Virus record (IMG/VR): IMGVR_UViG_3300013104_000019
Coordinates: 23,474 to 87,473 of that record
From: a virus
Lineage: Duplodnaviria > Heunggongvirae > Uroviricota > Caudoviricetes
Length of the DNA stretch: 64,000 nucleotides
Strand: one strand, 5' to 3'
The notes beneath the pieces are model-generated. The model saw only the letters and a program-made list of their open reading frames with translations. It did no database searches and was not told where the DNA came from. The position numbers were made by a program, and so were the translations under genes. The stretch's first letter is position 1. Each line of letters opens with the position of its first letter. Of the stretch, positions 49,146 to 49,692 are shown piece after piece.

Positions 49146-49563
49146 TTACTCCAGCACCCCTATTATATGCGAGAGTAGCCCCGCCTTTCGCGATCACGGT
49201 TTGTCTGTCACCTCCTTTCTGGTAGATCGACTCTGATTGCACCTCCATCTTTAGGCCGGGCCTTAGGCTTTCGCAAGCCGGAGTCGTTGTCCGGACGCGC
49301 TAACTTTCCGTGTAGGCGCGAAGCCTGGTTTCCGACATTACCTGCGATAGCGCGTAGGCGTCGGATAAACGGACCGGGTAGAGCTACGCTAGGCTCTATC
49401 AAGTTGTACTGCCGGTACGCGGCCTGACGCTTTACGCGTCGCTGGGCCATTGCGGGCATTCCTTGTTTCAGAAGGTTTGTACCCGCGCGCTGGTGCCGTG
49501 AATGTGCAGCCTACAATGCTTCTTTGCCCAAGTGCGCATAGGACAATGATGCATTGTGGGAAG

Positions 49564-49576
49564 TACATTCGAAACG
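49564..49576 (+). promoter_or_regulatory. orphan TACATTCGAAACG motif inside ORF-free region
   Basis: No ORF follows it. This argues the motif is a DNA or RNA element rather than only an RBS context. Confidence 0.3.
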
Positions 49577-49663
49577 CAAGACCGCAGTCGATTTCTGACG
49601 ACTCCACTCGCTACGTGAAATTGACAAATCGGACTCGGTTTTGCTTTCTGTGCTTCGGTGTAG

Positions 49664-49692
49664 GGGGAGGCTTCGGCCTCCCTTCTATGCCA
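49664..49692 (+). terminator. intrinsic terminator
   Basis: gggggaggcTTCGgcctccc then ttctatgcc. Confidence 0.7.

What the first reader, a model, noticed from the sequence alone, without database searches (positions are those of the whole stretch)
49146..49692. Second ORF-free structured block of about 545 nt, ending in a terminator
After the exonuclease gene there are no credible ORFs for ~545 nt, again unusual for this genome. The block contains several hairpins and an orphan TACATTCGAA motif. It ends with the UUCG terminator at 49664-49692. It could be a second ncRNA, a long structured 3'UTR, or a decayed gene.
Basis: seen in the sequence. Interest (0 to 1): 0.5.

Follow-up and report, generated by a model that had tools for sequence, protein, structure and literature searches.

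The report
New large structured phage RNA gene
The gene-free stretch is a real, previously uncatalogued ~520-nucleotide folded RNA gene found only in a small group of uncultured giant phages, beside a second large RNA, tRNA genes and RNA-processing enzymes; what it does is unknown.

Summary
Window 49146-49716 has no conserved ORF. Positions 49169-49691 (+ strand) behave as a 523-nt structured non-coding RNA gene.

- **Homologues:** they sit at the same position, directly after a DEDD-type exoribonuclease gene, in 10 further phage lineages from metagenomes.
- **Conservation:** nucleotide identity equals or exceeds that of the flanking protein genes.
- **Structure:** a 145-pair structure is 88.7% paired (35.5-45.7% in slid controls), and 51 pairs changed on both sides (22-27 in controls). 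Invariant G-U pairs fix the strand.
- **5' end:** a conserved TATTATATG, matching the phiKZ late-promoter motif TATG. Its G is the first base of the closing helix.
- **3' end:** a UUCG hairpin overlapping TATGCC, the generic terminator/promoter junction of this phage.
- **Known families:** no Rfam family matches (ROOL, GOLLD, introns, RNase P). There is no match in 50,697 phage genomes or in GTDB genomes.
- **Context:** a second conserved structured RNA (47881-48542) lies upstream, after two tRNA genes. The downstream gene has an ADP-ribosyltransferase fold closest to the RNA 2'-phosphotransferase Tpt1.

Function is inferred only. The closest analogy is the large ornate RNAs of phage tRNA islands. 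A conserved apical loop, CCUCCUUUC, resembles the anti-Shine-Dalgarno sequence.

The parts
49161..49169 (+). Promoter-type motif TATTATATG. TATG is at 49166-49169 and the predicted start of the RNA is G49169.
   Evidence: Unique in the window. ATATGCGAG is kept in 9 of the 10 homologues that include the 5' end; L044 has TATAG. phiKZ late promoters have the consensus TATG, with the G as the start site (PMC4666361). Function here is inferred, not shown.
49169..49691 (+). The structured non-coding RNA, 523 nt as predicted.
   Evidence: Homologous blocks occur in 10 other lineages. The 145-pair structure is 88.7% paired against 35.5-45.7% in slid controls. 51 pairs changed on both sides against 22-27, with 0 of 500 shuffles reaching this. 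Identity to L037 stops exactly after TATGCC.
49168..49275 (+). 5' domain closed by helix P1 (UGCGAGAGU 49168-49176 with GCUUUCGCA 49267-49275). The inner helices covary although their sequence diverges.
   Evidence: helices 1-4. The long inner hairpin, helix 4, has 7 of 10 pairs changed on both sides.
49211..49219 (+). Apical loop CCUCCUUUC, which resembles the anti-Shine-Dalgarno sequence.
   Evidence: The loop core CUCCUUUC is identical in 9 of 10 lineages (L025 has CUCCUCC), while the supporting stem covaries. No internal partner with covariation was found. The resemblance to the 16S rRNA 3' end is my own knowledge.
49276..49400 (+). Most conserved central region: hairpins 49278-49294, 49296-49320 and 49377-49400, and a nested set of helices at 49322-49375.
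   Evidence: Nearly identical over about 150 nt between the window and L015. Helices 5-10 are 82-98% paired, with compensatory changes in helices 8-10.
49400..49512 (+). Invariant CAAGUUGU (49400-49407) and GCAGCCU (49506-49512). They form helix GUUGU 49403-49407 / GCAGC 49506-49510 around a variable insert (49408-49498).
   Evidence: All 11 sequences are identical, with two fixed U-G pairs (helix 11). The insert differs in length (deleted in part in L043) but folds into comparable hairpins. The same motif pair occurs in the upstream RNA block of every lineage.
49499..49571 (+). Long hairpin 49511-49522/49548-49559, extended by helix UGAAUGU 49499-49505 / ACAUUCG 49565-49571. The extension crosses the GUUGU/GCAGC helix, so it is either a pseudoknot or an alternative fold.
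   Evidence: Helix 17 has 9 of 12 pairs changed on both sides. Helix 16 has one pair split 5 C-G to 5 U-A. It competes with another covarying pairing, GAAGUACA/UGUGCUUC (helix 15). The data cannot choose between them.
49576..49644 (+). 3' domain with invariant CGACUCCAC (49599-49607) and GGUUUUGC (49637-49644).
   Evidence: helices 19-21.
49657..49691 (+). Terminal hairpin with a UUCG loop. It overlaps TATGCC (49686-49691), the promoter-type motif of the next gene (ATG 49717).
   Evidence: Compensatory changes in the stem. The same hairpin-TATGCC arrangement, about 27 nt ahead of a start codon, recurs at 13161, 41555, 48542, 50289, 54805 and 55689. No U-tract.
47881..48542 (+). Companion RNA block (about 660 nt) directly after tRNA-Asn and before the exonuclease gene.
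   Evidence: Conserved in L015, L018, L021 and L043, and reduced in L025. 219 pairs are 91.1% paired against 38.6-45.6% in slid controls, and 56 pairs changed on both sides against 8-16. No Rfam match.
48576..49145 (+). DEDD-type 3'-5' exoribonuclease-like gene lying between the two RNAs. Its true start is ATG 48576, not 48543.
   Evidence: PHROG 2259 'RNase H', 4.7e-33. Weak matches to Rv2179c/RNase AS. All homologues align from 48576.
49717..50199 (+). Downstream gene, 160 aa, with an ADP-ribosyltransferase fold.

Best explanation
Positions 49169-49691 are a free-standing gene for a stable, highly folded non-coding RNA of about 523 nt.

**What is shown**
- The sequence is conserved.
- It has no reading frame.
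- It keeps a multi-domain secondary structure on the + strand through compensatory changes.

**What is inferred from motifs**
- The phage's own non-virion RNA polymerase starts at the G of a conserved TATG (49169). That G is also the first base of the closing helix.
- The transcript ends at the UUCG hairpin that closes the unit, just before the next gene's TATGCC start motif.

**What is inferred from context and analogy**
- The RNA acts in trans as a folded RNA, or as an RNA-protein particle, in the phage's tRNA and RNA-processing island. This is the manner of ROOL and GOLLD, the large ornate RNAs of other phages.
- It probably works together with the neighbouring 660-nt RNA.
- The invariant single-stranded elements are the likely contact points. 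They are the CCUCCUUUC apical loop, CAAGUUGU/GCAGCCU, UUCGAA, CGACUCCAC and GGUUUUGC.
- The pyrimidine loop could pair with Shine-Dalgarno-like purine runs.

The biochemical role is not established by anything here.
For: **Conservation and synteny**
- 11 lineages carry the block, and the exonuclease gene lies directly upstream in all nine homologous loci that reach far enough upstream.
- The downstream neighbour varies.
- Identity over aligned columns is 75.9-89.5% for the RNA, against 73.9-79.5% and 71.7-81.9% for the two flanking genes.

**Not coding**
- No ORF is conserved.

**Structure**
- Folding z-score is -6.1.
- 88.7% of cells are paired, against 35.5-45.7% in slid controls.
- 51 pairs and 120 cells changed on both sides, against 22-27 pairs and 24-41 cells in controls.
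- 0 of 500 shuffles reach the observed values (one search gives similar figures on 8 sequences).

**Strand**
- Invariant U-G and G-U pairs would be C-A mismatches on the other strand.

**Ends**
- TATG is conserved at +1. TATG is the phiKZ late-promoter consensus, with G as the start site.
- The 3' boundary is fixed by L037.
- The hairpin-TATGCC junction is generic in this phage.
- There is no sigma-70-type promoter in the region.

**Context**
- Two tRNA genes.
- A second covarying RNA.
- An exoribonuclease-like gene.
- A protein with a Tpt1-like ADP-ribosyltransferase fold.
- A cpYpsA SLOG protein.
- ROOL and GOLLD are phage RNAs often found near tRNA islands (PMC12286853).
Against: - There are no expression data, so neither end has been mapped.
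- No hairpin lies between the exonuclease stop codon (49145) and the RNA. Read-through from the exonuclease mRNA is therefore possible.
- One lineage (L044) has TATAG instead of TATG.
- The 11 sequences fall into a few related groups. Some double changes are single events inherited by several sequences.
- Two covarying pairings for the ACAUUC segment cannot both be right.
- Several invariant helices carry no covariation.
- The function is purely by analogy. The anti-Shine-Dalgarno-like loop has no demonstrated partner.
- A covariance model of the blk2 core scores the upstream RNA at only 5.2 bits.
Confidence: 0.85

Rival explanations
1. The block is a long structured 3' untranslated region of the exonuclease mRNA. 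It would protect that mRNA from 3' decay or control its expression in cis, and would not be a separate RNA.
For: The exonuclease gene lies directly upstream of the block in every locus that reaches far enough upstream, with only about 20 nt between the stop codon and the block. No hairpin lies between them. The block ends in the terminator-type hairpin that would also end the exonuclease transcript.
Against: A promoter-type TATG is conserved exactly at the first base of the closing helix. Exonuclease homologues in phiCbK-like and Brevundimonas jumbo phages have no such block. 500 nt with 20 or more covarying helices and many invariant single-stranded motifs is far more than 3' end protection needs. 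A similar RNA sits upstream of the same gene.
Confidence: 0.1
2. The block is a member of a known large RNA family that the Rfam models miss because of divergence. Candidates are ROOL, GOLLD, a group I or II intron, RNase P RNA or tmRNA.
For: Its size of about 520 nt, its phage origin and its place in a tRNA island fit ROOL and GOLLD. Rfam models of large RNAs can miss distant members.
Against: No family appears even at E up to 10 with permissive filters on the 3.1-kb region, nor at E up to 5 on six homologous loci. ARAGORN finds no tmRNA. The flanking genes are complete and independent in all lineages, so there are no exons to join.
Confidence: 0.04
3. The block is a decayed protein gene or a DNA-level element, such as a replication origin, a packaging site or a recombination hotspot. 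The apparent structure would be incidental.
For: Mobile endonuclease genes and small ORFs are inserted at the borders of the blocks in some lineages. The area is therefore recombinationally active.
Against: No frame is open in any lineage, and indels are not multiples of three. The block is conserved as well as or better than its neighbouring genes. Compensatory changes and fixed G-U pairs are specific to one strand, which is expected for RNA and not for duplex DNA.
Confidence: 0.02

Closest known systems
ROOL RNA (Rfam RF03087)
   Same: A large (about 500-600 nt), intricately folded RNA of unknown function. It is encoded by phages and prophages, often beside tRNA genes.
   Different: There is no match to the ROOL covariance model at any threshold tried. 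Hosts and phage type differ: these are uncultured relatives of nucleus-forming jumbo phages. Here two different large RNAs flank an exoribonuclease gene. Oligomer or cage formation was not tested.
GOLLD RNA (Rfam RF01998)
   Same: A phage-borne giant RNA near tRNA genes, with a well conserved part and a more variable part. tRNAs sometimes lie inside or next to it.
   Different: There is no match to the GOLLD model. This RNA is about 520 nt rather than over 800 nt. Its conserved segments are spread over the whole RNA.
Stable small RNAs (species 1 and 2) of the phage T4 tRNA gene cluster (own knowledge)
   Same: Non-tRNA stable RNAs of unknown function, encoded within a phage tRNA region.
   Different: The T4 RNAs are far smaller (about 140 nt) and are processed out of the tRNA precursor. 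The RNA here appears to have its own promoter.
Transcription units driven by the phiKZ late-type promoter
   Same: TATG with the G as the start site, as defined for the phiKZ non-virion RNA polymerase. The hairpin-TATGCC junction recurs in front of many genes of this window.
   Different: Here the motif precedes a non-coding RNA rather than an mRNA leader. Use of the motif by this phage's polymerase is inferred only.

Membership tests
ROOL RNA (RF03087) | Match to the family covariance model (sequence plus structure). | tested here: not met
   No hit at the gathering threshold on the window. No hit at E up to 10 on 47300-50400 with permissive filters, nor at E up to 5 on six homologous loci.
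ROOL RNA (RF03087) | Phage or prophage location, often near tRNA genes, with a length of about 500-600 nt. | tested here: met
   The window is jumbo-phage DNA. tRNA-Ser and tRNA-Asn lie 1.3-1.6 kb upstream. The RNA is 523 nt. Context alone does not make it a member.
GOLLD RNA (RF01998) | Match to the family covariance model, above all to its universally conserved 3' half. | tested here: not met
   No hit.
ROOL/GOLLD-type RNA-only assemblies | Forms homo-oligomeric cages without protein. | not testable with these tools
   This needs in-vitro transcription followed by size-exclusion chromatography or cryo-EM.
Group I / group II self-splicing introns | Match to the intron models, and interruption of a host gene whose exons join into one frame. 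| tested here: not met
   No Rfam hit apart from one chance-level 15.8-bit match to a plastid intron family. The upstream and downstream genes are complete, have their own start signals and align full-length to homologues. The downstream neighbour differs between lineages.
tRNA / tmRNA / RNase P RNA | Detection by ARAGORN or by the Rfam models. | tested here: not met
   ARAGORN finds only the two tRNAs at 47615-47880. Rfam finds nothing in the block.
Canonical intrinsic terminator | A G+C-rich hairpin followed directly by a U-run. | tested here: not met
   The hairpin is present, but its tail is UUCUAUGCC. The site at 49657-49691 is not reported by the scan, whereas the end of the upstream RNA (48507-48532 plus a T-rich tail) is.
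phiKZ-type late promoter | TATG with transcription starting at the G. | tested here: inconclusive
   The motif is present and conserved in 9 of 10 lineages at the base of helix P1. The family definition comes from PMC4666361. The start site was not measured, and that paper notes TATG is necessary but not sufficient.
Same RNA family as the upstream block (47881-48542) | Significant match of one block to a model built from the other. | tested here: inconclusive
   Both blocks carry the invariant CAAGUUGU...GCAGCCU followed at once by a hairpin that closes in GGG, in every lineage. A covariance model of the blk2 core scores blk1 at only 5.2 bits, E 5.8. nhmmer finds no cross-match.

The most novel reading that the evidence does not exclude
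The two large RNAs (47881-48542 and 49169-49691) form a two-component RNA machine specific to a clade related to nucleus-forming jumbo phages.

- **Form:** a hetero-oligomeric RNA assembly, or a particle built with the exoribonuclease between them and the Tpt1-like ADP-ribosyltransferase-fold enzyme downstream.
- **Possible action 1:** it intervenes in host translation or RNA-directed immunity by displaying an anti-Shine-Dalgarno mimic (CCUCCUUUC) that captures ribosome-binding sites.
- **Possible action 2:** it serves as a decoy or substrate for NAD-dependent RNA-modifying enzymes.
Probability: 0.12. Interest if true: 0.9.

Novelty: new variant of a known kind. Interest (0 to 1): 0.68.

Why it matters
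Only a handful of large, elaborately folded bacterial and phage RNAs are known (OLE, GOLLD, ROOL, HEARO, raiA and a few others). Recent structures showed that ROOL and GOLLD build RNA-only cages, yet their function remains open.

This would be a further, unrelated class with several useful properties:

- **A new phage group.** These phages are related to nucleus-forming jumbo phages that transcribe with their own polymerases.
- **A paired arrangement.** Two large RNAs bracket an exoribonuclease gene, next to tRNAs and an ADP-ribosyltransferase-fold enzyme related to RNA 2'-phosphotransferase. This offers concrete candidate protein partners, which ROOL and GOLLD lack.
- **A testable element.** The conserved anti-Shine-Dalgarno-like loop can be examined directly.
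- **Defined ends.** The boundaries are precise enough (49169-49691) for in-vitro transcription, probing and cryo-EM.

The limits are real. The family is rare: 11 lineages, all from metagenomes. No cultured phage carries it. Nothing here shows expression.

Tried and rejected
**Searches that found nothing**
- Rfam at the gathering threshold and at permissive thresholds, on the window and on six homologous loci, gave only tRNAs.
- blastn of 48500-50300 against 50,697 phage genomes found no homologue of the block.
- The only cultured phage with a related downstream gene is Pseudomonas phage pPa_SNUABM_DT01. It has an unannotated reverse-strand gene at the corresponding place, not the RNA.
- An exact-pattern scan of IMG/VR with CGACTCCAC...TGAC...GTTTTGC returned only the two known contigs plus four chance hits inside coding sequence.
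- A JGI metagenome scan found three contigs, all near-identical to known ones.
- A GTDB genome scan found none.
- More distant homologues of the downstream protein (L027-L031) lack the block by nhmmer with --max.
- The L008/L013 matches to the AAGTTGT...GCAGCC pattern lie in coding sequence, so they are chance matches.

**Ideas tested and dropped**
- A kissing interaction between the blk2 loop CCUCCUUUC and GAAAGGAGG in the blk1 hairpin loop. The blk1 sequence is present only in the window type, altered in L015, and replaced by UUCG loops in L018 and L025.
- An internal partner for the loop. No purine run is conserved column by column.
- A hammerhead ribozyme at the 5' end of blk1 (CUGAUGAG...). 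The catalytic G12 position is A, and Rfam is silent.
- A covariance model R1 of the blk2 core, meant to prove that blk1 is a paralogue. The result was not significant.
- Co-variation of the leader motif ACATTCGAAGGA with the blk2 copy across lineages. The L021/L015 loci held show no such leader.
- The 224-nt spacer before tRNA-Ser. It is not conserved beyond near-identical contigs.

**Could not be checked**
- The supplementary data of the 2023 catalogue of viral structured RNAs are not held.

Full report
**What is there.**
- The window is jumbo-phage DNA. It is nearly identical to IMG/VR contig IMGVR_UViG_3300048915_000145 of 244.6 kb.
- Genes run almost entirely on the + strand.
- An exonuclease-like gene stops at 49145 and the next gene starts at ATG 49717. 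The 571 nt between them hold only short ORFs, none conserved.
- The + strand folds far better than shuffled sequence: -230.3 kcal/mol, z = -6.1. The - strand gives z = -3.4.

**Relatives.**
- I reached relatives through the downstream 160-aa protein and through the exonuclease. Both routes gave metagenomic contigs that carry a homologous block at the same place, directly after the exonuclease gene.
- The loci are L015, L018, L019, L020, L021, L025, L042, L043, L044 and L045, with L037 identical to the window.
- Two of these relatives encode chimallin, the shell protein of the phage nucleus, a few kb downstream. The window itself contains a phiKZ-type prohead protease domain.
- I therefore place the clade near the nucleus-forming jumbo phages. 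Chimallin itself is not within the window.
- The clade is far from any cultured phage. The prohead protease finds only a partial 38% match in one Burkholderia phage.
- The block has no blastn match among 50,697 phage genomes, none in GTDB genomes, and only three near-identical contigs in JGI metagenomes.

**It is an RNA, not a gene remnant.**
- Over aligned columns the block is 75.9-89.5% identical to its homologues. The exonuclease gene is 73.9-79.5% identical and the downstream gene 71.7-81.9%.
- Conservation is mosaic. Runs of up to about 150 nt are almost invariant, and they alternate with stretches that differ in sequence and length yet fold into equivalent hairpins.
- On the 11-sequence alignment, a structure of 145 pairs in 23 helices is 88.7% paired. 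When the partners are slid by 1-3 columns this falls to 35.5-45.7%.
- 51 pairs (120 cells) changed on both sides, against 22-27 pairs (24-41 cells) in the slid controls. No shuffle out of 500 reaches the observed values. An 8-sequence alignment gave the same picture.
- Several pairs are invariant U-G or G-U, which only work on the + strand.
- No frame is open in any lineage, and tblastn matches to the window's short ORFs break across frames.
- Caveat: the sequences fall into a few related groups, so some double changes are single inherited events.

**Ends.**
- *5' end.* All homologues but one share (C)TATTATATGCGAG; L025 has TATCATATG and L044 has TATAG. TATTATATG is unique in the window.
- In phiKZ, the late promoters used by the non-virion RNA polymerase have the consensus TATG, with the G as the start site (PMC4666361).
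- Here that G (49169) is the first base of the helix that closes the 5' domain: GCGAGAGU paired with (A/G)CUUUCGC.
- *3' end.* A 35-nt hairpin (49657-49691) overlaps TATGCC.
- Hairpin-TATGCC followed about 27 nt later by a start codon recurs before many genes of the window: 13161, 41555, 48542, 50289, 54805 and 55689. TATGCC is mildly enriched. This is therefore the ordinary terminator/promoter junction of this phage, not a special feature of the RNA.
- L037 is identical to the window up to TATGCC and then carries a different gene, which places the boundary at 49691.
- The hairpin lacks a U-run.
- No sigma-70-type promoter is present in 47300-50300.
- The predicted RNA is thus 49169-49691, 523 nt. 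Both ends are inferred, not measured.
- Nothing separates the RNA from the exonuclease stop codon, so read-through is possible.

**Anatomy**.
- *5' domain, 49168-49275.* A long covarying hairpin carries the apical loop CCUCCUUUC (49211-49219). The loop core CUCCUUUC is the same in 9 of 10 lineages while its stem changes completely.
- *Central region, 49276-49400.* This is the most conserved part.
- *Invariant pair.* CAAGUUGU (49400-49407) and GCAGCCU (49506-49512) enclose a variable insert.
- *Long hairpin, 49511-49559.* Nine of its twelve pairs show compensatory change.
- *Crossing helix.* UGAAUGU (49499-49505) pairs with ACAUUCG (49565-49571). One of its pairs splits 5 C-G to 5 U-A. The helix crosses the CAAGUUGU/GCAGC helix, so it is either a pseudoknot or an alternative fold. 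A third covarying option for the same bases (helix 15) cannot be excluded.
- *3' domain.* It contains invariant CGACUCCAC and GGUUUUGC.
Its resemblance to the common leader ...TTACATTCGAAGGAA...ATG of this phage holds only in the window-type lineages, so it may be coincidental.

**Surroundings.**
- Two tRNA genes, Ser-GCU and Asn-GUU, lie at 47615-47880.
- Right after them comes another ORF-free block, 47881-48542. It is conserved in the same phages and strongly supported as structured: 219 pairs, 91.1% paired against 38.6-45.6% in slid controls, and 56 double-changed pairs against 8-16.
- This block also contains CAAGUUGU...GCAGCCU followed at once by a hairpin closing in GGG, in every lineage. 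That includes the reduced version of about 330 nt in L025.
- This suggests a shared module or a shared ligand, but homology is not proven. A covariance model of the blk2 core scores the upstream block at only 5.2 bits.
- Between the two RNAs lies a DEDD-type exonuclease. It matches PHROG 'RNase H' at 4.7e-33 and weakly resembles the 3'-5' exoribonucleases Rv2179c and RNase AS. Its real start is ATG 48576.
- The same enzyme in phiCbK-like and Brevundimonas phages is not flanked by such blocks.
- The downstream 160-aa protein has no family annotation, but it models confidently (pLDDT 80) as an ADP-ribosyltransferase fold.
- A cpYpsA SLOG-family protein lies upstream of the tRNAs.
- The RNA therefore sits in an island devoted to RNA ends, tRNA and NAD-type chemistry.

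**Comparison with known RNAs.**
- No Rfam family matches the window region or the homologous loci, even at permissive thresholds. ARAGORN finds no tmRNA.
- The literature held here describes no large RNA of this kind in jumbo phages. A 2026 review mentions only that phiKZ expresses non-coding RNAs.
- The closest analogues by size, elaborateness, phage origin and tRNA neighbourhood are ROOL and GOLLD. Membership in either was tested through their models and not met.
- I therefore class this as a new RNA class of a known kind: the large ornate RNAs of phage tRNA islands.

**Mechanism and confidence.**
- That this is a structured RNA element on the + strand is close to certain.
- I put at about 0.85 that it is a separate transcript starting at G49169. 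The main rival, a long 3'UTR of the exonuclease mRNA, stands at about 0.1.
- Its function is unknown.
- My best guess, at low confidence, is a trans-acting folded RNA or RNA-protein particle. It would work with the upstream RNA in the phage's handling of tRNA, RNA ends or translation, and would use the invariant single-stranded motifs as contact sites.
- The CCUCCUUUC loop is the most concrete lead. It matches the anti-Shine-Dalgarno core of 16S rRNA (own knowledge). No partner was found inside the RNA or in the upstream RNA.

Noticed in passing
window 47881-48542 (+): A second, larger (about 660 nt) ORF-free block lies directly after tRNA-Asn. It is conserved in the same phages and strongly supported as structured RNA (91.1% paired, 56 double-changed pairs), with no Rfam match. 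It shares CAAGUUGU...GCAGCCU with the block under study.
   Followed up: partly
[not shown]
   Followed up: partly
window 48543 vs 48576: The ATG at 48543 that opens the longest exonuclease ORF is the ATG inside the promoter-type TATGCC. All homologues align from ATG 48576, so the gene probably encodes 189 aa rather than 200.
   Followed up: yes
window 13161, 41555, 44007, 48542, 49686, 50289, 54805, 55689 (+): A recurring junction: a G+C-rich hairpin (often with a CUUCGG loop), then (T)TATGCC, then a start codon about 27 nt later. It looks like the standard terminator plus TATG-type promoter unit of this phage.
   Followed up: partly
window 34084, 50301, 51746, 54818, 56663 (+); also L018, L019, L042, L043, L044: A shared leader motif, (T)TACATTCGAAGGAA, runs into the ribosome-binding site of several genes. 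ACATTCGAA occurs 6 times exactly on the + strand and never on the - strand.
   Followed up: partly
L001 5045-5345 versus window 47888/47889: The IMG/VR contig carries about 300 extra nt, with an 83-aa ORF, between tRNA-Asn and the upstream RNA. The window lacks this insertion. The same ORF sits at that place in L021.
   Followed up: partly
L019 184-870; L043 2887-3504; L025 256-663: Homing-endonuclease-type genes (GIY-YIG/NUMOD3, and an HNH-like gene in L025) are inserted at the borders of the RNA blocks or next to the tRNAs in some lineages. In L025 the tRNA call spans 133 nt.
   Followed up: no
window 47894-47925 (+): The invariant 5' end of the upstream RNA reads GCUGUCUGAUGAGCCG...CGGCAAAC, which resembles a hammerhead core. 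The position of the catalytic G12 is A, and Rfam reports nothing.
   Followed up: partly
window 46451-46990 (+): A protein of the circularly permuted YpsA SLOG family (Pfam PF12694, 3.4e-10) lies just upstream of the tRNA/RNA island. It is syntenic in L021 and L043.
   Followed up: no
window 18523-20256 (+): A 577-aa phage protein carries YadA-like stalk and membrane-anchor domains (Pfam 2.5e-11 and 4.6e-16). These are normally found in bacterial trimeric autotransporter adhesins.
   Followed up: no
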